From NCBI RefSeq assembly GCF_000372725.1, contig NW_005201287.1:465081-529080 (forward strand): 64,000 nt of DNA, given 5' to 3'. This DNA is from Emiliania huxleyi CCMP1516 (taxonomy: Eukaryota). Shown here one piece after another: positions 366 to 64,000 of the stretch. Position 1 is the first letter of the stretch; every line of letters begins with the position of its first letter. The position numbers and the translations under genes are program-made. The notes beneath the pieces were generated by a model. It was not told where the DNA came from, ran no database searches, and saw only the letters and a list, made by a program, of their open reading frames with translations.

Positions 366-2773
366 GCTGGAGGTAGTGCACCGCCGAGCGGACGAGGACG
401 TGCGGGGCGGTGAGCGCGTTGAGGAGCAGCGCCGTCCGCGCGCCTGATCCGCCCTGCGAGGGGGCGAGCAAGGGGGAGGTCTCAGTCGCTTCGACACCGC
501 CGCCGAGGAGTCGCTCTCCTGTGCACACCACTCCCCCGAACTAGATGGCCGAAGGCTGACTACTGACTACAGTCTCCAGCAAGACTCTCCTCGCCTGCGC
601 GACGAGGAGACGTCGATGCTGGCCAACTGGACTACTCACTCCTTCCTGAGTAGTGACTACTCAGAGTAGTACTGAGCTCCTCGCTCGCCTGCGACGAGGA
701 GGAGATATTGATGTTGACGACGCGGCCCGTCTTGCGGTACGCCTCCTCGAAGGTGGTGTCGCCGTAGTAGCGGCGCGTGCAGCGCGCGAACACGTCGTTG
801 TCGACGAGCGAGCCGAGCACCTATTCACAGCTGCACTGTTCACAGCTGGACTACTCACAGTGCTGTCGACGAGGCGAGCCGAGCACCTATTCACAGCTGC
901 ACTGTTCACAGCTGGACTACTCACAGTGCTGTCGACGAGGGAGCCGAGCACCTATTCACAGCTGCACTGTTCACAGCTGGACTACTCACAGTGCTGTCGA
1001 CGAGGCGAGCCGAGCACCACAGAGTTGTAGAGCAGCTGCGGCAGCGGCGGGAACCAGCGGTCGGGCAGGTAGCGGACGGCGATGTCGCGCTGGATAATGT
1101 CCGACAGCATCTCCTGCGAGCGTCCACGAGGAGCGAGCTCAGAGTGGAGCTCTCCGTCGCGCGGGCTGGTGCCCGAGACGCCCCCTCCTGGTCGGTGTTG
1201 ACCGCGAGCACGCCGGCGACGATGGCGCCACCAGAGGTGCCGGAGACGATCCGCGGCATCGTGCCCGCCTCGATGAGAGCCTGCAGCAGACACAACCTCC
1301 TGCAACCTCGAGCAATCTCGTGCAGTCTCGTGCAATCTCGTGCAATCTCGCCTGCACGACGCCGAGGTGGTGCATGCGATCTCCTCCAATCTCGTGCAGT
1401 CTCGTGCAATCTCGTGCAATCTCGTGCAATCTCGCCTGCACGACGCCGAGGTGGTGCATGCGATCTCCTCCAATCTCGTGCAGTCTCGTGCAGTCTCGTG
1501 CAATCTCGTGCAATCTCGCCTGCACGACGCCGAGGTGGTGCATGCGATCTCCTCCAATCTCGTGCAGTCTCGTGCAGTCTCGTGCAGCCTCGTGCAATCT
1601 CGCCTGCACGACGCCGAGGTGGTACATGGCGAGCGAGCCGCCGCCCGAGAGGCAGAGCGCGGTGTGGCCGATGCAGACGGACGCGCGCTCGAAGAGCTGA
1701 AGCCTCTCGCGGTACGAGAGGCTGGCGCAGGGGGCGCCTGATCTCGGGTCATCTCGAGTCATCTCGGGTGATCTCGCGGCGCGAGAGGCTCGCGCACGGG
1801 GGGTGTGGGGGGGGGGGGGGGGGGCCCCCGCAAAGTGCTTGACCCCCCCGGCGAGCTCGTCGTGGAGCCTCTCGACAGCCTCCTTGGTGCCGACGCGGCA
1901 CCTGATTCAAAATGAGCCCTCCAGGTGGGCACTCAGCCCGCCCCCCCGCAGTTTTGCCCCCCGGGGGGGCACTCGGGGTGCAGCGCCCGCGAGTTTGTCT
2001 GCTCCTAATCTCCCACCAGCATCGAGGAAAGCAGCCGCATCAGCGCCTGCAGGTAGTCAGCGAATTCGTATCCATCGTTCTCCATTAGTTCACAGCAGCC
2101 TGCACCAGCGCCTGCAGGTCGTTTGACTCTCGCGCGCTCTTGAGCTGCGTCGTCGCTGCGCCGATCCGGTCGCAATTCGGCGGCGGCTCTGCGCGCCACG
2201 CGTCCTTGCCGTCGAGCGAGTCGAGCTCGCGCGCCGCCGCCGCCCACTCCACCCAAGGACCGGCCGCCTGCTGCCACCTCGAGGTGTGAAGAGGCGGCAG
2301 CGGGGCTGTTCCACCCGAGGACCGGCCGCCTGCAGCGTGCGGCGGAGCGCGACGCGGCGAGAGATGGAGCCTCCGCGGTACCAGCGCGAGGTGGACTCGA
2401 GGACGTACCAGACCTTGGACGCTATGTTGAGCAGCGAGACGCACAGCACCGACAGGGCGATCATCGCCATCTGCCACGCGACAAAGATGAGCTGTCCGGC
2501 AAGGAAGGCGGCGGCGAGGCCGGTCCACATGACCCACCGAAAGTACTGGCGGACGGTGACGACGGCGAGGACGGAGAGGAGGCACATCTGCCACGCCGAC
2601 GCCTCCGCCGTAAGGCTCCACAGCGCGCTGCCCAGCTCCATCGCCTCGTGGAGCGGGTGCGACGCGAGCTGGATGGCGTTCGAGACGCAGGTGTCGTAGG
2701 CGGCGTGGACGGCGCCGCCGCACCACTGCGGCGGCGCAGCGACGGCAGAGACGTCCGCCGCCTCGCAGCTCAT
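1..2773 (-). CDS. Patatin-like triacylglycerol lipase (SDP1/TGL4-like), multi-exon, 3' end runs off the window
   Basis: Exons give an N-terminal hydrophobic region, ALCLSGGGSLAMYHLGVV (oxyanion Gly motif), IVSGTSGGAIVAG (GxSxG nucleophile), TTFEEAYRKTGRVVNI and RRLLLNALTAPHVLVRSAVH; ATG at 2773. Confidence 0.85.
799..1018. repeat. About 65-bp tandem repeat in a patatin intron; each unit copies the start of the next exon (VLGSLVD)
   Basis: tgtcgacgag(g)cgagccgagcacc occurs near 799, 864, 930 and 995. Confidence 0.9.
1310..1625. repeat. 84-bp tandem repeat of the exon end/donor (HLGVVQ|GC) plus (ctcgtgcaat)n
   Basis: ctcgcctgcacgacgccgaggtggt occurs at 1347, 1431, 1515 and 1599. Confidence 0.9.
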
Positions 2774-2885
2774 GCCTGTGTAAATAGCAAGAGGGCGGGG
2801 CGTCGCGTTTCTTGCTGGACGACGGCGATTTCCAGCGATGCGCCCGCGATGCCCGCGACGTGCGTCCCTTGTCAACACGCCGCGA

Positions 2886-4368: not shown

Positions 4369-5937
4369 TCACCTCACCTCCGCCTGCGGGCAGGAGCCCT
4401 TCTCCTCCGCCGCCTCGGCAGCCGCGCCCGCCCCACTGCCCGCCGGCTCGACGGCCTCCGTCGTCTGCTCCGCGGTCTGCGGCGCGTCCGCCTGCAGCCG
4501 CGGAGAGATGGCCACGGGGGAGATGGAGGCAACCTTGCGGAAGATCTCGCCCATCCCGCTGTTGAAGCCGTTCGCCTGCGGTGCGGCGGGGCAGAGACAT
4601 GATCAGAGACATGGTCCCGCCTGCCGTCTGCACCTCGGCGCCTCGGGGGGCTGCCTGTTCGCCCGGCTGACCTCCCACCTGCCTCTCTCTCTCCCCTGCC
4701 TCTCGGCTGCCTCTCATCTGCCTCTCAGTTCACTTCAATCTCGGGTCGATCTCGTCCTCCCCTCGGCTAGCACGCACCTCCCGCTCTCGGCACATCGGAC
4801 CGTACTCGCCCTCGTCCTGAAACGAGACTCCGTCCTCGCTCCTGCTGACCCGGCCCGGCTCGGGGGCGATCGGGGCCGCCTAGTCGCGGGCAATCTCGGG
4901 TCCTCTCGAGTCCTCTCGGCGGATGCGCCCGCCGTCGCGACTCCAGCGGGCCGCCACAGCGCTGGCCGCAGAGCCGTCGGCGGCGACCGCGGCGCGCGAG
5001 GCTTGCTCGGCGGTGGCGGGCGCCGCGCCGAAGAACATCGAGATGATTGGAAAGCCTGCGCGCACGTGAGCGGTGTGTGGAGCAATATCAAATCTCGACC
5101 AATCTCGGTTCATCTCGACCAATCTCGGTTCATCTCGGTCCATCTCGGTTCATCTCGTGCCGTGGTCGGAGAGGGAAGCGCCGATCAACCTGCCGTCCGC
5201 ATCGCACCGCACCTCGGCCGCCTCGCGCTCGAGCGTCGTCTCGCCTAAGGGGGAAGGCTCCGAGAAGGCTCGACGAAGGCGCGGCGCCCCGTCTAACCGG
5301 ATGCCCCGATGTCTCGCCGCGGCCGTAGAAGGGCTGCACGAAGGGCTCGCGCAGCTTGGGCGGGTCGTCGCACGGGTTGCCGACCACCGCCCAGTAGTAG
5401 CGGCGGACCTTGCAGGGCGAGGGAGGGAGGGGGGTTGGCCTGTCGCCTCTCTCCACCTCCCAGAGTGCTTCGGCGGCTCGCGGAAGACAGAGAGGCAGCT
5501 GCAGAGAGGGGAGAGGAAAGCAGACGCGCCTCCCCGCCCGCGAGCGTGACGTTGGCAGTGTCGACTCGTATAAAGTCCTGCGTGTCACACACGCACGGCC
5601 AGCAGCAGTAGTACATGAACCCGCTCACGAGGCCTCCGCCGTCGACGCGAGGCAGCGTAAGGCGGTATCGCGTGTAGTCGCTCGGGCGGGTCGGCGAGCC
5701 AGAGACGGCGCAGAAGCCCGTGAACATCTCCTCCAGCTTCGACGGCGCCAGCTGCGACGCGCGCTGGAGGATGAAGCTCACCCACAGGTGCGAGGCTGCG
5801 TTTCTGTTGCCGTGTTTGAAGATGTTGCCGTACTCGCTGTGCAGGTCGCGGACGGTCGCAGGTCGCCACGGCGGCGACACGCCGGCCACAGCGATGGAGG
5901 CTAGGGAGAGCAGAGCGATGGGCGGACGCCTCGACAT
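4369..5937 (-). CDS. Uncharacterised Cys-rich, probably secreted protein, multi-exon
   Basis: Signal-peptide-like start MSRRPPIALLSLASIAVAG; conserved-looking motifs GFCAVSGSP, MYYCCWPCVCDTQDFI, VGNPC and GMGEIFRKVASISP. Confidence 0.65.
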
Positions 5938-8825: not shown

Positions 8826-8848
8826 GCGAAACGTTTTTCTTCATATGA

Positions 8849-12275: not shown

Positions 12276-15200
12276 ATGCTCCTCGTGTTGCTCTCCGCCC
12301 CGGCCGGCGAGCTGTGTGGTGCGGAGACGCGGCGCATCAGCGCGCGCAACCTCCTACTCAGCCCGCACACGCCCTTCTCGCTCGAGGCGGCGCCGGGCTG
12401 CTTCAAGTGGTCTGCGGCCGACGTGTCCCTCGTGCAGGTCGTGCGGCTGGAGGAGGCGGCCGGCTGCCCGCACGGGTCGAGTCGGCGGGTGCAGCTCGTC
12501 ACCCGCGCCCTCGCGCCGGGCGGCTGCGAGGGCGGCCGCGGCAAGGGCCACTGCCGAACGATGGTGCTCGCGGTGCCGGTCGAGGGCGACGGGTCGGAGG
12601 CGCGGGGCTCGGCGTCGTGCTTCGGGGACGAGTCGCTGGGGTGCGAGGTGAACGTGGGGCTCATCTCCTCCCTCTCCATCTCGACCACCACACGCGAGAT
12701 GGTCGCGCAGGACGACGAGATGCAGTGGCTGCAGGCGCACGGGTACGACGTCGAGGGCAACGAGTTTTCCGAGTCCGCGATGCGGAGGCTCCACTTCCGC
12801 TGGCGGTGGGAGGGGCCGAGCGAGCTGTCGTTTGTGGACCTCGCCACCACCCGCCAGATCCTCGACTCCGACCTCGAGGCCCTCGCCTCGCGACCCGAGG
12901 CGGCCCGACTCCACTACCGCGTGCCGGTGCACGCAACCACCCCCAACCCGGCAGTGCAGACGTCCGCCACGCTGCTCAACGAGACGGCGGCCGCGAGGCA
13001 GCAGGTCAGCGGCCTCGTCTCGATCCGCATACGTCCGGCGCACGTCATGCTCTGGCCCGGCCGCCGCGTCGCCGTCCCGCCCGGCTCTTGCCTTCGGTAC
13101 CACCTCTGCAGCCACCAGGAGGGCGTCTGCCACACGCCGGAGAGCTTCGACCGGCGCGCGGCGCAGCTGCTGCCGAGAGGGTCGCCCGCGCCGTCCACGC
13201 GCTGGTCGATGATCGGCAACCCTGCGGTCGGATCGGTGGATGGAGGCGGCGTCTTCCACTCCCTTCTAGGAACCTTCTAGGAAGCGAGGAGTAACTTCTA
13301 GGAACTTTCTAGGCGGCGTCTTCCACGCGGCGGGGAAGGGCGAGGCGGACGTGGCGATGAGGCACGTCGCGATGCGTATCCACGCGGCCAAGGCGCCCCT
13401 GGTGGTTGCCGCGCCGCGCGAGCTCTCGCTCTCTGTGCCCGAGCCTGCCGAGGCTGCGGCGGCGCGCCGACTGCTCCGCCGCCCTCCCGCGGGCTGCCCT
13501 CGCCTCGAGGCGTCTCGAGGTCTCGAGGGGTCGGGCGGGGGAGCGGGGCCGGTTCTGGCGGAGGACGACCCGCGCACTGTCTACCTCGTCGCCGGCGAGG
13601 CTCGCAACGCGTCGCTCCACGTCTTTGCGCACGACCCGCTCGTCAGTGCGGACGGCGTCCCCGCGTCCGAGCGGCTCCTGCTCAACGGCTCGGCGCCGCT
13701 GCCGCTGCTGCCGCACTCCGCACAGACGTGCGGCCGCTCCGACAGGCACCTCGTTCCGACTCTCTCCCTCGGCGGCGGCTGCTCCGCCGCGGGCGAGCCT
13801 CTCCCGCCCGCTGCCGACGAGCTTGCCGCCGCGCCCCTCGCTGCAAGGGCGGCGCCAGGCAATGCGGTGGCTCTGGCGGCTGTCGACCTTGCGGGCGGCG
13901 GGGAGGCGTGCAGCAGCGCCTTCGACGGGTGCCTTGTGGGCGGCGCTCCGCCAGGCGAGGGCAGTAGTGGGAGGAGGAGGGGTGGCGGGAGTAGGCAACG
14001 CTGACACATCTCCTCGGGGCAGCACTGAGAAGAATGCCACGACACCATCAAGCACAACAGCGTTGGTACGGCGCCCCGGCACCCCCTCCCCTTCCCCCTT
14101 CCCCCTTCCCCGTCCGCCAGGCGCTCCCGCCATCCCAACCTGCCAGTGCGTCCGCTTGCGCGCCTCCTCTGTCGGACTCGCTTCGCTCGACGCGCGGCTC
14201 GGCGCGGCGCCCGACGGCTCGTGGGGCGAGCAGCGCGCGTGCGTCCCTCTCGTCGTGCTGCCTCCTCTCGCCGTGCAGGAGGCTACCCTCCGATCTCCCC
14301 GCACCTCCCCTCATATCTCCCCGCACCTCCCCACACCTCGCCGTGCAGGAGGCTACCCTCGTCTACCCCTGGCTCTGCGCTGCGCACGCCGAGGCGCATC
14401 CGCTGCCGCTGCCCTCCGTGTCCGGGGGGTGTGGACGCGCGAGCCCGCCATGCTGCGAATGGTGCATTCGGCCAACCCCGCCATCGGCGTGTCGTTAGGT
14501 CCGGCTGCGTCAGCTGGCGGGTCGAGCAGGCTGGACCTCAGAGCGCGGCGGCGGTGGCGAGCGATCGCTACCTCTCGGTGCGCGGTGCGGGCAGCGTCTC
14601 TTTGCGCGCGACCGACGTGCGAGCTCCGCAGGCGAGCGAACCCGAACCCGAACCCTAGCCCGAACCCTAGCCCGAACCCTACCCCTACCCCTAACCCTAA
14701 CCCTAACCCTAACCCTAACGCCGCAGGCTAGCGCCGCCGCACGCGTCGCCGCCGTCGAGGTCGCCTCGCTGCTCGCGATCTCGTCGGGCGAGCTGCCAGC
14801 CCTCGTCGGAGGAGGGGCGGGAGGCGAGGCGCGCGCCGCGGTGCTGGCGGAGGCGGCGGCGCCGGGCGCCGAGCTGGAGGCGGAGGCGGGCTCGGAGCTC
14901 GAGGTGGTCGTCCTCTTTGCTGGCCGCGACGGGTCGCCACTCGCCCTCTCCTCGTGCGCAGGCCTGACTCCTTCTTCTTCTTCTTAGTCTTGTCATTGCT
15001 CTAGTGGCAGTAGTAGTCTCATCATCGTCATTGGTATCATCATCTCGTGCGCAGGCCTGACCTCTTCTTATTCTTCGTTAGTATGACTAGTGTTCTCTCG
15101 TGCGCAGGCCTGACTGTCGAGTGGAGCCTCGAGCCGCTCCAGGCCCGGCGGAGGGAGGGGAGCGCTTTCGCGGCGAGCGGCGGAGGAGGGGCTGCCGGCG

Positions 15201-18200
15201 GGGAGCTGAGCGGCACCGCGGCTTGCCAGCCTCGCTGCGGCGGCGGAGGAGGAGGGGGAGGCGGAGGCGGAGGCGGAGGCGGAGGGGGAGGGGGAGGGGG
15301 AGGCGCGAGGGAGGGCGAGGGGCACCACTCTTGCGCGGTGGTCCGCGTGCGCGCGGTGGCGGCGGGCGCCGCCTCGCTCCGTCTGCGCGCCGGCACCCTC
15401 TGCTCGCAACAGGACGTCCTCCAGCGGTCGGTCGCTCTCTCGTCGCACGTTCCCCCGCCCGAGGCGGCGGTACGACTCTGCGCGCCGGCCGAGACGGCGC
15501 GCAAGGGCGACCCCTCCCTTCCGGCGGAGCACCTCGAGTTTTCGAACCTGCCATCCGCGCTGGTCCGCGCAGCTGAAGGGGGGGGGGGGGGGGGCTCCCT
15601 GCGGCTGTCTTCACGCCTCGTGGTGAGTGAGAGCAGGTCCGCGCCGCTGCGGGCGACGACTCCTCCCTCCGCCCCCGCATCGACGCGACGACGAGGCTGC
15701 TCGCGGTCGAGTTCGTGGGAGGGAGGCTGGAAGGGGGGCGGGTCGTGCCGGGGGCGCGGCCACACTCGCTCGTCGTCGCGCTGCGGTGCCAGCCCTCCGC
15801 ACGGGCGCAGCGGAGCTGCAACCGCTGCACCGCAGACTGTGAGTCGTCTCGCCGATGTGCAATCAGGTGCCACGCGCCGCACGAGCAGCGCGTGCGCGTG
15901 CACCACGCGCCATCCAACTTCTCCCTCTCCTTCTCCGTCGCCTGCTCGCCGCCTCTCCGCCCGGTGCAGCACGCGTGCGAGCACGACGCCGTCCGCGGCG
16001 CCGAGCAGCGGGGCCGCTGCCCCGTCCCCCTCTCCCTCGGCTCCAACGGCTCCTTCCGGCTGCGGGGCCTCTGGCCCGGCGCGGGCGTGGCGGCGGAGGA
16101 GCTGCCGCCCGAGGAAGCCCCCGCCGCAGCGCTGGCAGACCTCTCCACCGCCGACGTCTCGCCCCCGTGCGGCGGCGACGGCGCCTGCGAGGGTGAGTGG
16201 GAGGTCGCCGTCCGCGGCAGTAAGCTCGGCCCGGCGCGGGTCGCCTTCTCGGTCGCCGGCCACCCGTCGTGTGCGTCGCTGCCCGTGGCTGTCCGCGTCA
16301 GGCACGCGGGCTTCGTGGCCGCTTGCCCTTCCTCGCAGCTCGCACTCGGCGCCTCGATGCGGTGCCACGCGCTCCCCGCCGCCGTCGCCGAGAGCGGCGC
16401 CGCGACCGACCCGGCCGCCACCGCGCGCATGCTCGACGGCGCGACCTTCGAGTGGCGGACCGAGGGCGGGCTCGCGGTCGTCGAGCCCCCCGCCGCAGCC
16501 AGCGCCAGCCGCGAGGCGCCTCGGCTCGGAGAGGCGCAGGGCACTGCTGCGCGCGAGAGCGCCGCGTCGGTGGTGGTGACTGGCATCGCGACAGGCCGCG
16601 CCTCGCTCCGGCTGCGCGCCTCGTCCGCCCCCGACGAGTACACGGACTCGCTCGCCGTGCTCGTGCGCCCGCGGCTGCGGCTGGCGACGCCCCCGGAGCT
16701 GCAGGCGGCGCACGCGGACCCGCCCGTCGTGCCTCCGAATGCGACCGTCCAGCTCGAGGCTGAGCCGTCCGCCGACGCCGAGGCGCGCCGCTGGCATGAG
16801 ACCAGATCATCATGTCTCAGATGTCACACCGAGGCGCCTTAATGTATCAAGGCGCGCCGCTGGCTGCTCTGCGACAGCTACGACGCGGCGGGGGAGCCGG
16901 TCGTAGCGCACGGCGCCGCTAGCGTCGGCGGGTCGGTGCTGCGTGTCGGCGAGGCGGCTGGTTCCGTCTGCGTGCGCGCCGCGTCTGACGCGACGTCAGG
17001 AGAGCGCGAGATTGCCCGAGACTGCCCGAGACTGCCCGAGATTGCCCGAGATTGCCCGAGATTGCCCGAGATTGCCCGAGATTGCCCGAGACTGCCCGAG
17101 ACTGCCCGAGAGGCCCGGTCTGACGCGACGCGAGGAGAGTGCGGGGCGGACACACACTTTTGCGCCACTCTCGAAGGGACACACACACTCTCGAAGGGGG
17201 TGGTGACCCTCATCGCCGTGTGGCGCGAACAGGCGACCGGGCGGTAGACGCAGGGCCGACTCTGGAAGGGAGGCTGCTCGTCGAGGTCGCTCCAATCGCC
17301 CAGGTCCGCCTCCTCGCTCCGACGGCTCCGCCGCCGCTGACTAAAGAGGCGTACGCCGCCCTCCACGGCGACGTCACCACCGACACGGGCGCGACCGCGA
17401 TCGCCGCCGCAGCGGCGAGGGCGACGCGCGCACCCGCGACCGGCGGGCAGGAGGTTGGCGGCGCGCTGCAGCTGGTTGCCGGGGCGGAGACACTTGTGTG
17501 TGGCGCTGCTTTCGACGCGGTGGGGCGGCGGGGCTCTCCCCCCCCCTCCCCCCTTCCTAACAACGAGCTCAGGCTGCTTCCTTTCTCTCCTTCAGGTCGG
17601 GCGGCGGATGCTCCCCTCGTCTCTGCCGGAGGGGTGGCTTTCCCTTTCCGCTTGGCCTCCGGGGGGCGCGTCTGTGCGGAGGGCGAGGAGCCGCCCGGCC
17701 TCGCGAACGGCAGCCGGCGCAGTGCAACTCATGCGTCCGTCCCTTGCTCCTTAGGTCCATCAGCCCGGCCTCGCAGACGGCAGCTGCGCAATGGTGCGCG
17801 CCGACGAAAGGGCGCTCGCTCTCTCGGAGGACGGCACGCCAAGCTCGTACCTCTTCGCGTCGAGCCGCCTCGCCCGCCCCGCCGCCGCAACCTTCTCGCA
17901 CCTCGCCCGTGCGCCCGCGGGGCCGGCCGCTGCGCGAGGGCAGTCGCAGCGGCACGACCCGCCCGCGGCGGCGCGGGGCGTGCCTACGTCGCCGCCGCCG
18001 CCGCCGCCGCCGCCGCGGGACATGGACGCCGCCGCGGAGCGTGGCGTCGTCGGAGGAGGGAGGGGCGACTCCGACGGGTCACGGGGCTCCCACTTTTGGT
18101 GGTGGCTGCTCTACACGCTGGCGGTCGTCGCAACCACGGCGGCGGTGATGCCGGGTGCTGTTCTCCTACTAGACTTGTCTCATTCATGAACGGTTGGTCA

Positions 18201-18393
18201 ATAGGCGGCGGTCGTGCTGGGTGCGGTGTTCGCGGGGCAAGGGCCGCTCAGCGCCGAGGCGGTGGCCGCCCGCGCTGCGAGGCGCGAGGCGAGCCTGATC
18301 AACCCGCGCAAGGACCACCCCAGCGCGCAGTCCTTCGCCTCCGTCGGCGGGCCAGCGTCGCCGCGGCACCGCTCGCCGGGCTTTGGGGACTGA
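12276..18393 (+). CDS. NUP210: Nuclear pore membrane glycoprotein gp210-like, multi-exon
   Basis: Signal peptide; FSLEAAPGCFKWS and CEVNVGLISSLSISTTTREM...LQAHGYDVEGNEFS...FRW resemble the gp210 N-terminus; long beta-rich body; single C-terminal TM (WWWLLYTLAVVATTAAVVLGAVFAG) and short tail ending at TGA 18391-18393. Confidence 0.7.
14637..14719 (+). repeat. Intronic telomere-like repeat grading from (CCCGAA) to (CCCTAA)n
   Basis: Directly visible between a GC donor and an AG acceptor. Confidence 0.85.
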
Positions 18394-18674
18394 CACATAC
18401 GCCGCTTGTCGGCACGCCGAGGCCAAGAGCCGCCACTTGCGCCACACGACCAGAGAGCCCACAGGCGGCGGGGCGCGGGGGCTTGAGAGTGGATGTGGCG
18501 CGTCACTGAGGGTTTGGTGAGGGCTTTTTATTGAGCGCGTTTTGCTCCTAATTATGGAAGGATGCACCCAAGATGCAAGAACACTGCACACTGGTCACTG
18601 CACACTGGACATTCTCATTGCAGTGTGCAGACACAATCACCCCTTTTTTTCCCGTCACAGCGCTGCCTCCCGGG

Positions 18675-21680: not shown

Positions 21681-23050
21681 ACATGTGCAAGCGCGGAGAA
21701 AATTCTTTTTACATCTCGCACCCGGAAGCGGAATGTTCGCTGCCGTGCTGCTTCACTGCACTCTGCTGCGCGCCTCGCGTATCGGCGCAAGCGCCACCGC
21801 CCCGCGCGGCCGCCGCCGCCGACGACGACTCCTTTGCCTCCCAAGAGCTGGCGCGCACGTGGGAGAGGACCGGCAAAGGGAAGCGATGCTGGCAGCCGGG
21901 TGATGCGACGGGGGACACCAGGGACGACGCGCGGCTCCTCTTCACCTCTTGGAGACTGACGCCCCTGCGGCTGCGCACGCGGCCAGGCTGCCTCGACTGC
22001 GTCCGCTGCCAGTTGGTGCTCTCGCACATCGGGCTACCCTTTCGGTGCGAGTCGGCATCTCAGACAACGCGGGCATCGCGGGCGTCGAGGAGATTTGTGA
22101 GTTTGCGGAGGCCATGGCGGCGACGATGCGGGACGTGACGCCGCTGGCGCCGCCCTCGGGCCGCGCGGAGGTGTTGGAGTGGCTGGAGGAGGCGAGGGCG
22201 GCGGCACTGGGCGGCGACGACGACCTGACGGGCTTGCTCGATCGCCTCGCCGGGCTGCTGGGCGGCGGTGGCGACGGCAGCGAGTCGAAGGTGCAGTTTG
22301 GGGCGAGGGCCGCGCAGCGGGCGCGGCTCGCCGCAGCCTATGCGAGCCTCTCCAACGGCGGCTTCGGGCTGGAGGATGCCGCCGCCCTAGCCGCACTGAG
22401 TGCTCTCGCGAGCAGGGCCGGGGGCAACAAATCAACTCTCTCTCACAGCAGACAGGCTCGACACAGGGTGCGGACTGGCGCACGTGCGCTAGCACTATCA
22501 CAGGCAAACCAAGAAAAAGAATGCCATAAAAAATTGCACAGCGCCTTCGCGCTTCGGTGTCTTCAGAGAGATAGGAAGAGGCAGTTTTCTGGCGCGGAAA
22601 AGAAACGAAGAGAAAACATACGGATTCATACGGACACAGCCTAATCGACGGCCCATAACGAGGGGCCGCGTCGCCCCTCGTGCTGTGCGCCTTTTGTGTG
22701 GTGCCAGTCCGTGCGCGTGCCACAGCCAGTCTGCTGTGAGAGGGGCGAGGCGGTGCCCGGTGCCGAGCGCAGGCGGAGCCCACAGTCTGTTTTCTCGTTT
22801 TTCGTCGTTCATGTTGTTGTTTTCTGTTAAATTCTTTTTCATGTACGCCGCGGGGTGCGCACCTGCGCACCGCCCGCGCCGAGGACGAGGAGCCTGAGCC
22901 AGAACGAGAATTGGAAGGGGAGGAGAGGCCGGAGCGGCGGAGGAGTTTGTCGGCCTCTTCGACGGCTCATAAGGGGTTGTTGTGCCTTTTGTTGTGCCAG
23001 ACTGCCAGTCCACAGTACGCGAGCTGGTCCCTCCCCAAGCGCCGCTTTCT

Positions 23051-24789
23051 CTAGGCGGCCGCCCCGAACAGCCCTTTCTCAGCGAGCAGACCCGCCGAGT
23101 TGCCGACGCCCGCGACGCCGACGAACTCGTCCACATCGCCGCCGCAAACAGCGAGCACCATCTCGCCGACGGCGCGCCTGTTCACAGAACAGGAACAGTG
23201 TGAAGAAAGGCGCTCTTCACACTCACAGGAAATCTCGCCACGGGCGCGCTTGACGATCGTGTCGCTCGAGCAGAGCTGCTGAACCAGCAGGGCACCGAGC
23301 GGCGCAGACTCGCCTGCTCACAGTTGTCTATGTGTGCATCCACAACCCCTTGGTGTCGACAGGCACCGAGCGGGCGGTGTCTCGCCGAGAGGTGCGTTCG
23401 GGTCTCGCCCCATCACGCCACCGCCGTCCTCCGCCTCGGGGAAGAGCGCCTGCCGAGATACAGCTAAGATATCGCCGAGAGATCGCCGAGGTACCCGCGT
23501 CGCCTCGGGGAAGAGCGCCTCGCGCATCTCCGCCGCCGCGGCCTTGTCCGCCTCGGCGACCCTCTGCGCCGCGAGCAGCGGCACGAGCAGCCGCCGGTCG
23601 CCTGTTGTGCGGCTGCCACGGGTGAAGACACGCTGCTCACATCCACAGCAGCGGCATAACCGGCCGCCGGTCGCCTGGTCGCTCCGACACTCCGCGAAGC
23701 AGAGGCGGCAGCAAGCTCACGACGGCGCGCCACGGCAAGCAGGTGGCCCCGGCCCCGCCTGGCGCCGCGACGACCAGCTGAAGGGCGGCCAGCTGCGCCT
23801 ATTCTCGACAGCGTGCGCAGTAGTACCGGCAACATCAGACGGCCAGCTGCAGGGCGGGTGAGTCGCGCCTCGCGCAGCGGCGCGTCCTCCCCGGCGGGGG
23901 TGGCGGAGGGGGCGTCAGCTACCGGCTCGACCGCCAGCATGGCCGCAACCTGCTCAGCCGCGGATGCGGCGAGGGCGGCGTCGCCGAGACTCCGCAGGCA
24001 GTTGAAGCCTGTTGGTCATTGAGATGCAGTCAGTACACCAGCCACTTGTATTCTGAAGGGCAGCAGGCAGTTGACGCCGGAGCGGGCGGCGTTCTCGCAC
24101 AAGCAGAGCAGCTGCGTGCGGGCGGCCCGCTCGGCGCCGTGGAGCTCCTTGGCCACCCATCCCACAAGGCGGAGCAGGACGCGGGCGAGGCGAGCGGAGG
24201 CACCCACTGCGCCGCCTTGGTCGGCGGCCGGAGGGAGGAGGGTGAGGCGGAAGGCGATCCGCGACCAGGCGACGAGCTGGCCGAGAGGGACGGCATCCGG
24301 AGTGGAGAGAGCGGCCGCGATGTGCTCCTCGGCGCGCAACTCTGAGCGGAGGGGCAGCGCTGCTCCGACACCGAAGGCATTCCCACGAATCACTAGGATA
24401 TTGTTGAGCAGGATGGACGCCTCGCGGGCGAGATGAGACCAGCCCGACGCGAGGCCGAGCTCAGACAGACCCGCCGCCCGGCCCGCGCTGAGGAGAACCG
24501 ACTCGTCGCAGAAGTCCTCGGTCGCCGTGCCGGTACGCGAGAGCAGGCGCAGCGCCAGGGCGGCGTCGGAAGCCAGTCCGGAAGCCTCGTCTTGCATCAG
24601 CGGGATCAGAGCGCGAACCACGACCTGCACTTGGGTCGCTGGATGCTGGCGACCACCGTCGGTCTGCTGCTGAGCAATGAACGTACTCAGCGCGGCGCCG
24701 ATTCGGGAGAGTTTGTTTTGTCCGATTCGGTCGACCTGCACGATATCCGCAGCTGGTTGCTCGCTCACCGCAGCCAAAAGTGCGTCCAT
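23051..24789 (-). CDS. RIC8: Ric-8/synembryn-like G-alpha GEF/chaperone, multi-exon
   Basis: ALRLLSR, EASILLNNIL, SRIAFRLTL, MREALFP, and a last exon AVGEMVLAVCGGDVDEFVGVAGVGNSAGLLAEKGLF matching the Ric-8 GxGNxAGLLAxxGL signature. Confidence 0.65.
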
Positions 24790-34379: not shown

Positions 34380-34419
34380 CTATGCGGCCTGCCAATAGAA
34401 ATAAGAAGCGGCCCCCGCG

Positions 34420-37298: not shown

Positions 37299-38698
37299 AT
37301 GGACGACGCTACGACCGCGGCCCTGCGTGCGCGTCGACCAGTATGCTGGGAGAATCCAGCGTGCGACGAAGACGGAGGCTGTGGCGTGCTCTCTCGCGCA
37401 GACCTCGACGCGAGCGTGCGGATGTGGGCGTGGCTCCGACCCCTCTTCGTCCTGCTCTTCCCAGAAGAGGTCACCAACCCACCGTGGGGCGAGCCCGGCA
37501 CCGTCTCCTCTCCCCTCCGCCGCATCGACGCCATGGGGCGAGCGCTGGGCCTCCGTCCTGGCCGCTGCCTGCTCAAGGCGGACTCGAACCTCGCCGTCTG
37601 TGGGTCCGTCAAGGCTCGCGGCGGCATGTTTGAGGTGTTTAATGTGGCTGCGCACCTCGCAAAGGCCTTTTTCGGCGGTTTGGAGGTGCGCGAGTCCGAG
37701 CTCCAGTCGGTCTTTGACCCTCGCGGCGCCGGCTTCTCCTCGGCCGCCCTCGCCGAGGACCCAAAGCTCCGTGCGCACCTGGCAGAGCGAGAGATCGTCG
37801 TCGGCTCTACGGGCAACCTCGGCCTGAGCGTGGGGCTCGGCGCCGCCGCCCTTGGCATGCGCGCGGTCGTGCACATGTCGACCGACGCAAAGGCGTGGAC
37901 GGAGAGCTAGGCTCTCCTCTACGAGCTGACTTCAGTGAGTCAGTCCATCAGTAGGCGTGGAAGAAGAGCCTGCTCCGCTCGCGCGGCGTCGTCGTCGTGG
38001 AGCACGCGGGGCTGTACGACGAGGCCGTGGCGGCCGGGCGGGCGGAGTCCGCCTCCAACCCGGCCTCACACTTTGTGGACGACGAGTCGAGCCGCGTCCT
38101 CTTTTTGGGCTACAGCGCCGCCGCCTTCGAGCTGCGCGCGCAGCTCGCCGAGCTCAACGTCGAGGTCAGCCCGGAGCGGCCCCTGGTCGTGCACATCCCC
38201 TGCGGCGTTGGCGGCGCGCCGGGCGGCCTCTGCTGGGGGATGCACCTCGCCTTTGGCGCCGCACAGCCCGTCCGCGTGTTCTTTGCCGAGCCAGTCGCCG
38301 CGCCGTGCGTCACGCTCGCCCTCTGCACGGGCAAGGGAGCGGCCGTCTGCGTAGCGGACATTGGCCTCGACGGCAAGACAGAGGCGGACGGCCTGGCCGT
38401 CGGGCGGGCATCTGCGCTGTGCTTCGAGACTTGCGCGCCTCTGGTCGAGGGGAGCTACACCATCGAGGATTGCACGCTGTTCGAGCACTTGGGCGCGCTC
38501 GTGGAGCTCGAGCGCAGCTTCATCGAGCCGTCGTGCTGCGCGTGCTTCGCCGGGCCTGGCCACCTCGCGGCGGGGTCGCAGCGGGCGCGCTGGCTCCTCG
38601 CGGAGGGGACCCACGTCTTTTGGGCAACGGGCGGCTCGCTGGTCCCGGAGGCTGAGCGAGAGGCACTCGTCGCTCGCACACCCATGGGACGGCAATAG
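37299..38698 (+). CDS. dsdA: D-serine dehydratase (ammonia-lyase), PLP fold type II; exons 37299-37892 and 37955-38698
   Basis: LLKADSNLAVCGSVKARGG, GSTGNLGLSVG, VHMSTDAK|AWKK, HFVDDE..LFLGYS, PCGVGGAPGG, ADGLAVGRAS and WATGGSLVP; a 62-bp GC-AG intron restores the frame. Confidence 0.93.
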
Positions 38699-51095: not shown

Positions 51096-53271
51096 ATTTC
51101 GGCATATACACAGTTTCCACATGTGCAAGTTCTTCTTGATGCACACGGCGGTGCAGCCCCCGGCCATAGCGGGCAACTCAAGGCATCGACGCTCTCGCCG
51201 AAGCCCCTGTGCACTGTCCGGCACTTGCCGCCGTTTTATTCGGCGCAATGGCCGGCGTTGAAGCTCCGAACCCAGGCGCAGCCGAGCCCATTTCTTTCAG
51301 AGACAATACCAACAACCTCTTTCACTCATTCTTAAAACAGTACCGGCCGGGATTTCGAAGATAGTGCTAAAATGGATACCTGCCTGGAGAATGGCATTTA
51401 ATTTCGCGGACCGGCTCTTAACAATCAGGTCATGTCACCGCTTAATGTGCATGTGCGTGGCCTACGTCAGAGACCAAGTGACCAGCCGTCCCGGGCAATT
51501 TGTGACCCGTCTACGCCCTCGCGCCTCGGGCGCGGCCGGCCGCCCGGCCGGCTGCCCCGTTGACTTCCCCGCCGCGCGCTACGCGTTCGTGCTACGCGTT
51601 CGTTCGCAGTAATCTGGCTTAGTTCAGAGAGGTCGGGTCGTCTCTATGCGTATCACAGCGCGGCGCTGGCCTGCGCAAAGGCGGGCATGTAGTCGAATCA
51701 ATCAATCATCCATCCCGACATTTGATGTTAGTGGCAAAACCGCGGAACCGAAAATGGCGTTTAATTTTGCGCACCTGCTGTCCGCCGCCTGCGGCGGCGC
51801 TGCGCGCCGCCTACGCGCGCTGCGCGCGCGTTTTCTCTCTCTTTTTCTGTCTTTTTCACAGTGTAATTTTACCGAAAAAATGCCATTTTTTGCACCTCGC
51901 CAGGGCCATAAGTCACACCCAAACGGCTCCTGTGACGACAAGCCCCGGGTCCCTCATCGCGGCTGACTCGGCTGACGTCTAGCTCTACAGCCCGTTCCAC
52001 CACGTTAGCCGCCTCGCGTCGTCGTCGAGCGGGTCGCAGCCAGGGTGCCAGGCCCATCGCCTGGTCACAGCGGCGGGGCGGCGTGAGGGAGGGCATCTCG
52101 AGGCGCCGACATCGTGTCAGAGGCCGTGGGGAAGGGGGTGGGGTGGGGTATCTGGATCGCGCCCGTCTTCGTCGTCCCAGCACTCCATCTCGAGTCATCT
52201 CGGGGCATCTCGGCGCATCTCGGCTACTCTCCACACCGCCATCGTCGTCCCAGCACTCCACCGTCGTCTCGGAGGGAGGAGGGTACTCCTTGGCCACCTG
52301 CGGGGCGAGATTAGCCGAGGCGAGATTAGCCGAGATTAGCCGAGATTGGACCCGAGGGTACTCCTTGGCCACCCGCGGGGCGGGTGTTCGCCGCCTCCTC
52401 TGTGTCAATGTCTTGCTGTCTCGGCGGTTACCCCCTCACCCGCCAGCGCCAACCGCGAAAGGCACTCAACGGTGGGCTGCACTCTCGTGCAGTCTCTCGG
52501 GTACTCGGTTGCCCACCCACTCTAGCCGCGCCTAAGCGACTCCCGCGAGGATAAAAGAATTCACAAAGGAAGGCGGTCGCACGTACGGTCAGCGGGAGAT
52601 GCAGATGGGTCATGGGGCACATGGTCCCTCGAGGTAGCAAATTTAAGTCCCAACACCCAAGCTCGACGGCTTTTTCTCACTTCTCAGTCTCCCACAGTGA
52701 CTCGCACTTCTTTCTCTCTCGCGCGGGCGACTCCACTCGGCCCCCTCTCCTCCTCGTGCGCTCGGGTGCCCGCTACAGGTATAGAGCCCCTCTCAGCGCT
52801 CGCTCCGCGCTCACCAGTCCGTGTACCAGACCCTCCGTCGGAGGCTCCGTCTGGGTACACTGACACTGTTCCTGTGCGCTGTGGGTATTTTAGAGGGGAG
52901 GAAGGCATGTTGTGCGAGTAGGGATCCCTTATGTAGATGTTAGAGGTGGGTTAAGAGGGAGATGTGCGCGAGCTGCGGGACCGCCGGGACGGCGGGCGGG
53001 TGATTGCGACTCGCCGCCACCCACTTTTGGCGACTTTTGGCGACCTTTGGGACGCGCGATCGATCGGCCGAGATCGACATGGCGGGCGAGGCCGTCACGG
53101 CCATGATCGTGGCTGACGACGCCGGCGACGACCCCCTGGCGGACCGCCGCGAGGACCGGGAGGCGGCGGCGGCGCGGGAGAGGAAGGCGAAGGTGGCGAA
53201 GCTCAAGTCGCAGACGGAGAAGGATCCCTATATAGGACAAAAGCGTCGAAAATGTCCCAAAAAGCGTGTCT

Positions 53272-53556: not shown

Positions 53557-53667
53557 TGCGACGGTGTATCATTCACTTTATGCCACCGTTGCATATCCCG
53601 ACGGCCGTCGCAAAACTGCAGTTTTGCGACGGTGTATCATTCACTTTATGCCACCGTTGCATATCCG
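53557..53667 (+). repeat. 41-bp direct repeat at 68-bp spacing
   Basis: tgcgacggtgtatcattcactttatgccaccgttgcatatcc occurs twice. Confidence 0.9.
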
Positions 53668-55030: not shown

Positions 55031-55552
55031 GCCGGTGAGCAGGCTCGACTGGCCCGCGCGCCCCTCCCCCAAGCCCTCGCCCAGCCTGCCCGCCAGCCTG
55101 GCTGCGCGGCGGGCCTTCGCGCGGGACAGGCAGGCGGCGCGCGCCTGTCGGAAGGGGGTCGTGGCCCGGGGGGGGGGGGGTGATGGGGGGGGCGGAGGGA
55201 GAGGGCGGGTGGCTAGGGCCAGGGTCTGGGGGTTTGCTCCTCCCTCTCCCTTTGCCCCTCCATCGCCGCCGGAAGCTCCCGCGCCGACAGCGCCGACACC
55301 TTCGCCTTGATTGGTGTCCCCGTATTCGTCAATGATTAGTGTCGCGGGAGTACCAAAGGCCGGTGCCTNNNNNNNNNNNNNNNNNNNNNNNNNNNNNNNN
55401 NNNNNNNNNNNNNNNNNNNNNNNNNNNNNNNNNNNNNNNNNNNNNNNNNNNNNNNNNNNNNNNNNNNNNNNNNNNNNNNNNNNNNNNNNNNNNNNNNNNN
55501 NNNNNNNNNNNNNNNNNNNNNNNNNNNNNNNNNNNNNNNNNNNNNNNNNNNN

Positions 55553-61873: not shown

Positions 61874-64000
61874 ATGCCCTTCGCGCCAATCTCGCTCGAC
61901 GAGATGAACAAGGAGGTGCTCGCGTGGGACATCTACCAGATGCTCGCCGGTGGGCCGCTCTACGATGTCAAAAAGGTCCCGGTCCGCTTCACCTCCATAG
62001 ACCAGTACCTCGACATCTTTGAGCCGCTGCTGCTCGAGGAGTGCCGCGCCCAGATCCTGCGCTCGATGGGCGAGTCGGAGCCGGCGCCGCACCACCTCAA
62101 GCTCCTCTCAATCGAGCAGAACGAGCCCTTCCGCCTGATGCGCTTCCAGCCGCCGCCGCCGCCCGAGGGAGGCAAGCCGCACTTCTTCGAGACGGACATC
62201 GTGCTCGTCTCGTACGAGCCGCTCGACATGGACGCGGCCGCCAAGCGCGGCGACGGCGAGGACGAGGACGAGCCCTCCACCGGCGGCGACTTTCACGCGC
62301 TCGGGCTGGTCGCGTCGGGCGGCGGCTCAGAGCATCTGTCGATCAAGCTGCACCTTCCGTCGCAGCGGACGGCGCGGATGCCGCAGGCGCAGTTCAAGCG
62401 GCTCTCGATGCTGCACCGCGTGATGGTCCCCTCCTCGGGCCACTGGTGCGTCCGAGAGGCCGTGCAGCGTGCTGCTGGCGAGGGGAGGCGCGTGGTGACG
62501 GCGCCTCCTCGTCGCTCAGGTACGTGCAGAAGCTGGGCAACATGGTGACGATCAACCGCGAGTTCCAGGCGCTCTCCTCGATGCGAGACCAATCAACTCG
62601 CCAATGATCGATTCATCACTTCCTCCCCCGGGCGCTGTACTCGATGCGGGACTAATCAGCGAATTCGTTCATTCCTCACTCCCCCAGGCGCTGTACTCGA
62701 TGCGAGACCTGCCGCTGTGCGAGGCTCTGCTGGGTAGATGCGGAACTACGTGTGTGTTCACGCTCGAGCGCTCGAGAGGACACGCCTTCGGCTGTACTCA
62801 GCTCTGCTCAGCCGCATGCACTTTATCCGCAGCCCTTGCATCCACGCGCTGCCCTCAGAGCACACCGCTCGCACACCGCTCGACTCTGCCGCTCCTGGCG
62901 CAGGCGCTGCTGGCGCCTGGCCCGTCGCGGCTTCCCGCCTCCGCGACTCTCAAGCCGTCGGAGCGCCCGCTGCGCGCCGTCGAGACGGCAGCGAGCTACG
63001 TTTGACTAGCGCGCAGTCCTTGGTGTGGTCCATAGGAAGCCTTGCTGCGCGCAATCGAGACGCGATTCGACAAGTCGCAGCTGCAAGCGATCCGCCTCTC
63101 CCTCACCGGCCGAGGAGCGAGATGAGCCGAGATGAGCCGAGATCAGCCGAGATCAGCCGAGATCAGCCGAGATCAGCCGAGATGAGGTCCGCCCCTCCCT
63201 CACCGGCCGACGAGCGGCGCTCGTGTGGTTGGCCAGCTTCACAGCTGTCTCTGTCTGGACTGGCAGCCCCTGTATGACCTCTCTCTCTCTCTCGCTGCAG
63301 GCGTGACGCTCATCCAGGGCCCTCCTGGCACCGGCAAGACTAAGACCATCCTCGGCGCTCCCTCTCCCGCCCTCCTCGCGAGAGGCGCCCTCCTTGCCCC
63401 GAATGAGAGACTGGCTCCCACACACCCCCTCCAGGAATCCTCTCTGTCCTCCTCGCGACGAGGGACGCGCGCGCGCGGCAGGAGGAGGGCGCCGCCGCGC
63501 CGCCGCCCTCCGCCATCGCCCCCCTCTCCCCCGACGACCCGCACACCCGCCCGCCGCCCCCCTCGGTCGCCTCCCTCCTCGCCGCCGCGTCGCCATGGCT
63601 CCGCTCCAGCAGCTACGCGGGCATCGACGCGCCCGGCGTCAGACGCGCGGCCGCGCCGCCCGCCGCCCCCTCCTCCGCCGCCCCCTCCTCCTCCGCCGCC
63701 CCCTCCGCCGCCGCCCCCTCCTCCGCCGCCCCGGCCGCCCTGTCGCGTGGCGTCTTCCCGCACGCCGCCGAGACAGACCGCCACCTGTCTCTCGGCCGCG
63801 CCACGGTAGAGGCCCCTCCGAGGCACGTGCTAGTGTGCGCCCCCTCCAACGCCGCCATCGACGAGATCGTCGCCCGCATCCTCGGCCGCGACGGAGGCGG
63901 AGGGGGAGGGGGCGGCGGCATGCTCGACGGCGCGGGGCACCCGTGGGTGCCGGACTGTGGTGCGGGTGTGCGGCCTGGGGTGGCGGAGGGACTGACTCAC
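61874..64000 (+). CDS. SEN1: SEN1/senataxin-like (UPF1-like SF1) helicase, multi-exon, runs off the window
   Basis: VPVRFTSIDQYLDIFEPLLLEECRAQI, TINREFQAL, LIQGPPGTGKTKTILG and VLVCAPSNAAIDEIVARI. Confidence 0.88.

What the first reader, a model, noticed from the sequence alone, without database searches (positions are those of the whole stretch)
799..62710. Introns bounded by direct copies of the exon junction: apparent ongoing intron birth by AG|GC tandem duplication
Seen: in many genes the start of the intron repeats the start of the next exon, and often the intron end repeats the previous exon end. Examples: aggcggcgtcttccac 13244/13311 (16/16); ctcgccgtgcaggaggctaccctc 14267/14337 (24/24); ccgcaggc(g/t)agcg around the telomere-like intron; ctcgtgcgcaggcctgac at 14951/15044/15097; aggcgcgccgctggc 16781/16850; a degenerate copy 18139/18205; cgcctcggggaagagcgcct 23432/23501 (20/20); aggcgtgga 37891/37953; 28/29 at 52279/52354; 24/26 at 62565/62684. 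Most of these introns are 62-75 bp and identities run from perfect to eroded, like an age series. Established: duplication of an AG|GT proto-splice site is a proposed but rarely documented intron-gain route. Inference: tolerance of GC donors makes any duplicated AGGC spliceable, so this may be a genome-wide intron-generating or boundary-homogenising process. The intron interiors are unrelated to each other, unlike introner families.
Basis: partly seen in the sequence, partly recalled or inferred. Interest (0 to 1): 0.85.

Follow-up and report, generated by a model that had tools for sequence, protein, structure and literature searches.

The report
Algal introns born from duplicated breaks
In this marine alga-like genome most introns examined begin with a short copy of the exon that follows them, followed by unrelated filler DNA, which likely means they arose when a staggered DNA break in a gene was filled in and patched and the duplicated bases happened to supply a splice signal.

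Summary
All ten named repeat pairs are present. RNA contigs skip the segments (11 joints listed; 10 in two studies), and DNA contigs keep all 14 introns they bridge. Of 42 introns modelled, 25 carry a junction copy above the 99th percentile of mismatched pairs: 22 copy the start of the next exon, 3 the end of the previous one. All 42 downstream exons start with G. The intronic copy decays at all codon positions and its donor drifts toward consensus. Distant orthologue loci lack 10 of the 14 senataxin intron positions. A relative pair 95% alike differs by a telomere-repeat intron with a 3-base duplication. Best reading: intron gain by fill-in of a staggered break plus filler (the Daphnia route, with longer repeats), made productive by GC/GA donor tolerance. 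It is not whole-unit AG|GC tandem duplication: interiors are foreign and only 22 of 42 have AG before the donor. 'Ongoing' is not shown; no intronless allele was seen. Rewriting of old introns remains open, because 3 of the 4 positions shared with relatives carry strong repeats. The scan noted single look-alike introns in other genomes, not this prevalence.

The parts
454..688 (-). Intron of a patatin-like lipase gene, 235 bases, with an internal second copy of the donor-spanning junction (599/691)
   Evidence: ORF model; repeat pair; Pfam Patatin on neighbouring exons, below the curated cut-off; no RNA laid
821..1017 (-). Intron made of three near-identical 66-base units, each = copy of the next exon's start + filler ending in AG
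   Evidence: ORF model only
1281..1603 (-). Intron with an 84-base unit (upstream exon end + intron start + short filler) repeated about four times
   Evidence: ORF model only
2047..2111 (-). 65-base GC-AG intron, junction copy on both sides
   Evidence: ORF model only
2268..2329 (-). 62-base GC-AG intron, 23/24 junction copy
   Evidence: ORF model only
12276..18395 (+). Gene with 13 introns and an open 1611-residue frame after splicing; weak NUP210 Ig-domain hits below cut-off
13246..13312 (+). 67-base GC-AG intron, 16/16 repeat (2 bases left, 14 right of the junction)
   Evidence: RNA joint in X11 and X13; kept in DNA X9, X10
13955..14120 (+). 166-base GC-AG intron, 11-base exact repeat (8 left, 3 right)
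   Evidence: RNA contig length 374 = model; kept in X9, X10
14282..14351 (+). 70-base intron, 24/24 repeat; equivalent cut 3 bases upstream with a GA donor
   Evidence: RNA joint in X11, X13
14632..14726 (+). 95-base GC-AG intron with telomere-type (CCCTAA-like) filler and a 12/13 repeat
   Evidence: RNA contig length
14962..15107 (+). 146-base intron of two units (93 + 53) with three copies of an 18-base junction; the middle copy is a zero-length exon
   Evidence: RNA joint in X11 skips both units; kept in X9
15563..15636 (+). 74-base GT-AG intron, 13/14 copy of next exon start
   Evidence: RNA joint
16783..16851 (+). 69-base GC-AG intron, 15/15 repeat
   Evidence: RNA joint in X11, X13; kept in X9
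17000..17232 (+). 233-base GA-AG intron holding a second, internal copy of its donor-spanning junction (16983/17118, 23/26) around a 10-base array
   Evidence: RNA joint
17683..17754 (+). 72-base GC-AG intron; 20/22 copy starts 10 bases after the donor
   Evidence: RNA joint
18139..18204 (+). 66-base GC-AG intron, eroded 18/21 copy of next exon start
   Evidence: RNA joint in X11, X13
23050..24789 (-). Gene of unknown family; six introns of 69-73 bases (23178-23249, 23314-23385, 23450-23518, 23602-23674, 23799-23868, 24009-24077), all six with a copy of the next exon's start
   Evidence: open frame after splicing; scores; no RNA laid; cut points were chosen partly from the repeats
37893..37954 (+). 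Only intron of a D-serine dehydratase-like gene, 62 bases, 15/17 copy; splits a motif that is continuous in homologues
52298..52372 (-). Predicted 75-base GT-AG intron between the 28/29 repeats at 52279/52354; splicing not tested
   Evidence: no RNA piece listed here
61874..64000 (+). 5' part of a senataxin-like gene; introns 62446-62519, 62569-62687, 62724-62903, 62961-63035, 63115-63300, 63355-63434
   Evidence: RNA contig length 275 = model; protein alignment; orthologue loci
62569..62687 (+). 119-base intron of two diverged units (63 + 56), three junction copies; same position as a telomere-repeat intron in L004/L005

Best explanation
These are spliced introns whose first 10-30 bases copy the exon that follows them, and they likely arose when a staggered double-strand break in coding DNA was filled in, duplicating those bases, and rejoined across 35-55 bases of filler. 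Shown: splicing, the duplication, the foreign filler, the decay of the intronic copy, and absence of most positions in distant orthologues. Inferred: the first copy supplies the donor (this genome accepts G|GT, G|GC and G|GA); the second copy or, more often, the filler's end supplies the AG; so removal restores the original message exactly and the event survives. Inferred: selection then tunes the donor (+3 to G), the rest decays, and the direct repeats let the unit be duplicated again or hit a second time, giving the double and fourfold units. Inferred: some fillers are telomere repeats added to the broken ends by telomerase.
For: Splicing. Excess over controls. 42 of 42 downstream exons start with G, 38 with GC/GT, and the donor dinucleotide equals the exon's first two bases in 35 of 42. 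Mismatches between copies fall 6/7/7 on codon positions 1/2/3, 13 of 20 non-synonymous, so the intronic copy is unconstrained; +3 differs toward G in the intron 12 times, away from G once. At 62961 and 63355 the homologues agree with the exon copy, not the intron copy. L001/L002 and L003 are uninterrupted across all six window senataxin positions; 10 of 14 positions in the window-type gene have no counterpart in the relatives compared (read by eye). The dehydratase intron splits a motif continuous in 11 homologues, two named D-serine dehydratase by a source. L004/L005 differ from the 95%-identical L003 by an insert of (TTAGGG)n then (CCCTAA)n with a 3-base AGG overlap, the pattern expected if both ends of a staggered break were extended and joined; window intron 14632 has one-sided telomere-type filler. 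No full-length family among interiors. Simulation: 25% of random events are spliceable under loose rules against 4.8% for GT only; 3.3% against 0.2% under strict rules. Precedent: Daphnia neointrons (PMC4202315, passages).
Against: No intronless allele was seen: 14 of 14 bridged introns are kept in DNA runs X9, X10, X2, X7, X4 (joint tables were cut, 9 and 95 rows hidden) and all six in L006. The intronless comparators lie in another clade; the nearer loci L007-L009 end before the positions, so gains are not dated and loss in the comparators is possible. 4 of 14 positions coincide with an intron in a relative and 3 of these 4 carry strong repeats. The lopsidedness is stronger than a symmetric break model predicts: 8 of 15 exact repeats extend <=3 bases left of the junction against 15% expected under loose rules (P about 0.0006); under strict splice rules the expectation is 34%, which the data do not clearly exceed. 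Repeat pairs are denser in genes (18 in 37 kb) than outside (4 in 27 kb), whereas untargeted breaks filtered by selection should give the reverse. Fillers show no excess of inverted local copies (P 0.49), only a weak excess of direct ones (P 0.04), and no more hairpins than exon controls. 17 of 42 introns pass neither one-sided test.
Confidence: 0.58

Rival explanations
1. Old introns are rewritten. A break inside an existing intron is repaired by copying briefly from a cDNA of the spliced message across the junction, so the intron's 5' part is replaced by the next exon's start while the old 3' end stays. Loss followed by regain at the same site would look alike.
For: Explains the copy starting at the junction (22 against 3), the excess in genes, second events centred on existing donors (16983/17118, 63091/63188, 599/691), and strong repeats at 3 of 4 positions shared with relatives, including a perfect 29-base repeat in L006 at a position where L003 also has an intron.
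Against: 10 of 14 positions are unshared, and L001 and L003 share only 1 of their 5 and 6 positions, so turnover is high anyway. The shared position at 62569 is occupied in L004/L005 by a sequence that its 95%-identical relative lacks, which fits parallel gain; parallel gains were 48% in Daphnia (PMC4202315, passages). Does not explain telomere-type fillers or why all 42 downstream exons start with G.
Confidence: 0.18
2. Whole-unit tandem duplication: 60-90 bases of exon are duplicated, spliced at AG|GY, and the interior is later replaced by slippage and deletions.
For: Duplications of this size do occur: DNA runs X2, X7 and X4 carry a 60-base duplication plus 3 bases at 58899-58958 that the window lacks; 66- and 84-base units are amplified at 799 and 1297; an 82-84-base duplication in L001.
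Against: Perfect 15-29-base copies abut unrelated, lower-GC filler (60% against 71%). Mean identity is clearly raised only to about +20 on the right and weakly to about -11 on the left. 20 of 42 upstream exons do not end in AG. No intron among the 42 is a full-length exon copy.
Confidence: 0.1
3. Insertion by a retroelement's enzymes (target-primed reverse transcription) of short RNA ends, for example 3' fragments of excised introns, giving long variable target duplications and a filler that brings its own acceptor.
For: Would explain variable 10-30-base duplications, the copy starting at the junction, and fillers that share intronic minisatellites. Non-LTR-derived introners exist (10.1101/2024.06.04.597373, passages).
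Against: No filler matched another intron's 3' end or any other window sequence beyond simple repeats and short matches (only 64 kb searched). No poly(A) or common tail. A simulation with fillers forced to end in YAG gave only 33% short-left repeats. Head-to-head telomere repeats in L004/L005 are not explained.
Confidence: 0.1
4. Reverse-transcriptase template switching between the direct repeats, not splicing.
For: Direct repeats can cause such artefacts (PMC8240250, search listing and abstract start only). All RNA evidence is from cDNA-derived contigs.
Against: All 11 listed joints allow G[T/C/A]..AG ends; joined forms are in the main contigs of two studies; removal gives a 1611-residue open frame and gap-free alignment to homologues; joints with 2-4-base overlaps behave the same.
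Confidence: 0.02

Closest known systems
Intron gain by repair of staggered double-strand breaks, Daphnia pulex (PMC4202315, passages; reviewed in PMC3443670, passages)
   Same: Insert flanked by a direct repeat of adjacent exon bases, unrelated interiors, second insertions into young introns, parallel gains at one site.
   Different: Repeats here reach 24-29 bases against 4-12 reported; they mark 25 of 42 introns examined, not only a set of polymorphic neointrons; the duplication supplies GC or GA donors; the copy is lopsided; some fillers are telomere repeats; no presence/absence allele was found in this species.
Tandem genomic duplication of an AGGT-containing exon segment (PMC3443670, passages)
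   Same: A duplicated exon stretch provides splice signals and the message is unchanged.
   Different: Only 10-30 of about 70 bases are exon copy; the acceptor often comes from filler; donors are mostly GC.
Introners (PMC9860276, passages; 10.1101/2024.06.04.597373, passages)
   Same: Splice sites taken from a target duplication; many lineage-specific introns; bias toward genes discussed there; a 4-base-duplication family is reported in the haptophyte Chrysochromulina.
   Different: Introner duplications are 3-9 bases and interiors form sequence families, often with terminal inverted repeats. Here duplications are longer and variable and no family was found among 42 introns. Neither text contains the word Emiliania (supplements not read).
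Emiliania huxleyi gene structure (PMC4028052, passages)
   Same: 56-65% GC-AG donors, some GA donors, 65% G+C; the window gives 25 GC, 12 GT, 4 GA, 1 GG of 42. The window's assignment to this species group is my inference from these traits, not a tool result.
   Different: That paper ascribes GC donors to high G+C content; the passages seen do not mention junction repeats. Here the GC donor is usually a copy of the next exon's first bases.
Amphioxus 'mirage' minisatellites
   Same: Tandem amplification of exon-intron boundary units, as at 799-1018 and 1297-1628.
   Different: Accounts only for the amplified units, not for single units with foreign filler.

Membership tests
Spliceosomal-type intron | Removed from RNA, kept in DNA, G[T/C/A]..AG ends | tested here: met
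Break-repair (staggered DSB) intron gain | Direct repeat of adjacent exon bases at the two ends, above background | tested here: met
   25 of 42 above the 99th percentile of mismatched pairs
Break-repair (staggered DSB) intron gain | Interior is foreign filler, not an element family and not an exon copy | tested here: met
   (42 window-type and 12 relatives' introns, plus the 64-kb window); whole genome not searchable
Break-repair (staggered DSB) intron gain | Intronless ancestral allele with one copy of the repeat in the species or a close outgroup | tested here: inconclusive
   None in five DNA runs and L006. Intronless in distant orthologues. Met for the relative pair L003 against L004/L005, but with a 3-base repeat
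Break-repair (staggered DSB) intron gain | Repeats enriched in young against old introns | tested here: inconclusive
   3 of 4 positions shared with relatives carry strong repeats; shared may mean parallel gain
Break-repair (staggered DSB) intron gain | Dependence on end-joining enzymes or telomerase | not testable with these tools
   needs induced breaks and mutants
Tandem genomic duplication (AGGT model) | Intron is a full-length copy of flanking exon | tested here: not met
   copy covers about 10-30 bases; identity near background beyond about +20 and -11
Tandem genomic duplication (AGGT model) | Both splice sites come from a duplicated AG|GY | tested here: not met
   20 of 42 upstream exons do not end in AG; met for a subset such as 14282 and 14962
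Introner (transposon-derived intron family) | Many introns with near-identical interiors | tested here: not met
   only minisatellite, telomere-type and homopolymer matches among 42; small sample, so rare families could be missed
Introner (transposon-derived intron family) | Fixed short target duplication (3-9 bases) and/or terminal inverted repeats | tested here: not met
   exact repeats vary from a few bases to 29; filler folding no stronger than exon controls; no dedicated search for terminal inverted repeats was run
Non-LTR retroelement insertion | Source RNA copy elsewhere and a common 3' tail | tested here: inconclusive
   none within 64 kb; genome not held

The most novel reading that the evidence does not exclude
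In this coccolithophore-like alga and its relatives, most introns are made without transposons by a gene-targeted break-and-patch process. The duplicated exon bases create the donor, which would explain the genome's GC-AG majority; telomerase writes some of the fillers; and the same junctions are hit repeatedly, so a large part of the intron complement is a datable series of births and rewrites.
Probability: 0.35. Interest if true: 0.9.

Novelty: new variant of a known kind. Interest (0 to 1): 0.74.

Why it matters
Most intron gains leave no trace of how they arose, and large-scale gain has mainly been credited to transposons. Here about 60% of the introns examined still carry a built-in record: two copies of the same bases, one constrained and one free. 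If this holds genome-wide, each intron can be dated by its own copy divergence, the tuning of new splice sites can be followed step by step, and break repair can be weighed directly against transposons as a source of introns. It also offers a mechanistic reason for the unusual GC-AG majority in this algal group, and the telomere-repeat introns in relatives point to telomerase as an intron writer.

Tried and rejected
Whole-genome counts: no genome is held. A scan of viral contigs for the 10-base intronic repeat, hoping for more DNA of this organism, found 0. The second read-laying was dominated by mobile-element repeats; its joint table hid 95 rows, so the senataxin introns rest on one RNA contig's length, and 52169, 52279 and 59096 were not tested in RNA or properly bridged in DNA. 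Local templating of fillers (inverted P 0.49, direct P 0.04) and hairpin excess (5 of 31 with z below -2 against 4 in exon controls) gave no real support. An idea that mismatches would be mostly synonymous, meaning the intron copy was once coding or came from another allele, was rejected (7 of 20 synonymous). The 42-base pair at 53557/53625 first looked like a non-genic example; it lies inside a 124-base insert in a repeated element and is a different thing. Four intron-bearing genes (4380-5850, 30200-34400, 44400-47130, 54150-55330) and the 52000-52420 fragment were left out of the count of 42 for lack of RNA or homology models. The intron at 1738-1827 has an uncertain (GG) donor and was kept in the 42. 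Literature: ten searches found no paper describing junction copies in this algal group or telomere-repeat intron gain. The Emiliania genome paper and a rice insertion paper are not held; a recalled DOI for a Phaeocystis paper returned an unrelated preprint. The genome paper's supplement, which I could not see, may describe these introns.
Full report
Setting. The window is eukaryotic, about 66% G+C. No whole genome is held. From the G+C content, the majority of GC donors and the 10-11-base intronic arrays I infer a coccolithophore of the Emiliania/Gephyrocapsa group; PMC4028052 (passages) reports 56-65% GC-AG junctions and some GA donors in E. huxleyi. No tool named the organism.

1. The observation. 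All ten named pairs are present at the given coordinates. A mismatch-tolerant scan found further pairs, for example 1705/1772, 2037/2102, 2248/2310, 17693/17763, 23769/23838, 62969/63044 and 63091/63188. With five protein-repeat regions masked, 22 pairs of score >=14 lie 55-130 bases apart, against 1-4 in each of 20 local shuffles; 15 of 31 pairs at 30-260 bases fall at 60-79.

2. They are introns. RNA contigs laid on 11950-19150 list 11 intron-sized joints, all 11 in run X11 and 10 also in X13, a different study (9 further joint rows hidden). Two more introns follow from the contig's length (374 letters between pieces, 374 in my model). Splicing all 13 gives an open 1611-residue frame. In the senataxin-like gene one RNA contig has 275 letters between its listed pieces and the six-intron model gives 275; the spliced protein aligns to nine homologues without an insertion at any junction. 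DNA contigs keep every intron they bridge: 9 of the 13 in X9 and/or X10 and 5 of the 6 senataxin introns in X2, X7 and/or X4. A reverse-transcription artefact is unlikely because every joint allows G[T/C/A]..AG ends and restores frame and homology.

3. Anatomy. I modelled 42 introns: 13 (RNA), 6 (RNA length and homology), 1 (homology), 14 (open frame only, cut points partly chosen from the repeats) and 8 from the same-species locus L006 (homology, by eye). Excluding the two consensus bases, 22 have an intron start that matches the next exon's start and 3 an intron end that matches the previous exon's end above the 99th percentile of 1722 mismatched pairs; 17 pass neither one-sided test, some of them with shorter two-sided repeats. 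All 42 downstream exons start with G and 38 with GC or GT; the donor equals those two bases in 35; only 22 upstream exons end in AG; 25 introns are 62-76 bases long. Mean identity between donor and acceptor flanks is 0.4-0.8 from +2 to +18 against about 0.3 in controls for most positions, and near background beyond about +20; the left side shows only a weak rise.

4. Direction and age. Of 222 aligned positions in the stronger copies, 20 differ, 6, 7 and 7 at codon positions 1, 2 and 3, and 13 would change the residue. So the intronic copy is free and the exon keeps the original; at 62961 and 63355 homologues agree with the exon version. Position +3 differs toward G in the intron 12 times and away once, as expected if new donors are tuned after birth. 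The window and L006 differ at 9 of 692 intron and 3 of 1053 exon positions; five perfect repeats have 0 mismatches in 94 bases (upper bound about 3%; chosen for being perfect). The youngest may be about as old as within-species variation, but none was seen to segregate.

5. Fillers. They are lower in G+C than flanking exons (60% against 71%), form no full-length family, and share only minisatellite, telomere-type and homopolymer stretches. They are not detectably copied from the flanks in inverted orientation and are no more hairpin-rich than exon controls. Several introns carry more than one event: two or three units at 14962, 62569 and 821, four at 1281, and a second donor-spanning copy inside 454-688, 17000-17232 and 63115-63300.

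6. Relatives. A metagenome scan with a senataxin alignment gave nine loci. L001/L002 (52% protein identity) and L003 run uninterrupted across all six window positions. L006 is the window's species and continues the gene with eight more introns. Of these 14 positions, 10 have no counterpart in L001/L002, L003 or, over the part they cover, L004/L005; 4 coincide, and 3 of the 4 carry strong repeats in the window-type gene, one a perfect 29 bases (positions matched by eye). L004 and L005 are 95% identical to L003 and carry, where L003 is continuous, an insert that reads (TTAGGG)n then (CCCTAA)n with a 3-base AGG overlap, at the same position as window intron 62569. By the one-sided test only 1 of 12 relatives' introns passes, though a second scan shows exon-copy pairs at three L001 introns. 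A tree of the N-terminal region puts the window with L009, P0001 and P0002 (100/98) apart from L001, L003 and L004 (L002 and L005-L008 left out as near-duplicates, and P0009 because it equals L001), so the intronless comparators are distant and the gains are undated. The dehydratase intron at 37893 splits a motif continuous in 11 of 11 homologues aligned, out of 120 listed; protein alignments do not show whether those genes have introns.

7. Mechanism. The anatomy (copy, filler, copy) is what fill-in of a staggered break with filler gives. In simulation on the window's own coding sequence, 10-30-base duplications with random filler can be spliced out exactly in 4.8% of cases with GT donors only, 20.8% with GC and 25.3% with all donors seen; with strict signals 0.2%, 2.2% and 3.3%. 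Telomere-repeat fillers point to free DNA ends. Two facts fit less well. The copies mostly start at the junction (8 of 15 exact repeats extend three bases or fewer to the left; expected 15% under loose rules and 34% under strict rules). And pairs are denser in genes than outside (18 in 37 kb against 4 in 27 kb, gene limits drawn by me). Both suggest targeting to transcribed DNA or to existing junctions, and keep the rewriting rival alive.

8. Known systems. Closest is break-repair intron gain in Daphnia (PMC4202315, passages: 4-12-base repeats, second insertions, 48% parallel gains). The AGGT tandem-duplication model (PMC3443670, passages) fails two defining tests here. Introners (PMC9860276 and 10.1101/2024.06.04.597373, passages) fail the family test in this sample. 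PMC13518057 (passages) reports widespread interstitial telomere repeats in another coccolithophore without, in the passages seen, linking them to intron gain. PMC10290126, PMC2784329 and 10.1101/2024.05.26.595999 (passages found for intron terms) do not describe junction copies. Ten searches found no description of this pattern; the original genome paper and its supplement were not available.

9. Verdict. Real, spliced, far above chance, and most likely a record of lineage-specific intron gain by duplication with filler. It works like the Daphnia break-repair route; membership lacks the intronless allele. New in repeat length, prevalence, lopsidedness, the link to GC/GA donors and the telomere fillers. 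Interest 0.74; new variant of a known kind.

Noticed in passing
L004:1093-1226 and L005:2149-2307 against L003:1745-1750: Intron made of head-to-head telomere repeats (TTAGGG-type then CCCTAA-type), GT..AG ends formed by the repeats plus a 3-base duplication, absent from a 95%-identical relative; a second telomere-repeat insert starts about 95 bases further on. L003:3450-3647 is another telomere-filled intron with a 16-base exon copy.
   Followed up: partly
window 58899-58958: DNA runs X2, X7 and X4 carry a 60-base tandem duplication plus 3 bases here that the window lacks; in frame in a minus-strand open frame.
   Followed up: partly
window 52900-54117: About 1.2 kb skipped by a contig of run X4 and highly repeated in all DNA runs: a mobile-element insertion that is present or absent between strains.
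   Followed up: partly
window 53552-53675: 124-base insert missing from other copies of that element, flanked by a 6-base direct repeat, holding a 42-base direct repeat and perfect palindromes of 28 and 22 bases.
   Followed up: partly
window 14962-15107: The middle junction copy forms a zero-length exon (acceptor directly followed by donor), a possible recursive splice site.
   Followed up: no
window 12276-13245, 61874-62445, 37299-37892, 24078-24789; also L001, L003: First exons are long and intron-free while introns crowd the gene body, the opposite of the 5' bias left by reverse-transcription loss (recalled). Several neighbouring genes (ankyrin-like 8830-10550, repeat protein 20250-21680) look intronless.
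   Followed up: no
window about 2010 (minus strand): One in-frame TAG remains in the patatin-like gene model: a nonsense allele, an assembly error or a missed small intron.
   Followed up: no
window 37299-38697: D-serine dehydratase-like gene; best hits (58-63%) include eukaryotic transcriptome proteins and then many 49-56% hits that look bacterial, a possible transfer followed by intron gain.
   Followed up: partly
L001:2851-3752: Introns of this lineage share a short motif near their starts and two share a 44-base stretch at 82% identity, a possible introner-like family; here the exon copy tends to lie at the intron's 3' end.
   Followed up: partly
L007-L009, after residue about 161 of the senataxin orthologue: Long A+T-rich microsatellite intron at a position absent from the window; a third intron style among related algae.
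   Followed up: no
window 59096/59147: 32/33 direct repeat with an 18-base spacer upstream of a gene, without a splice signal: a duplication-plus-filler outside coding DNA.
   Followed up: no
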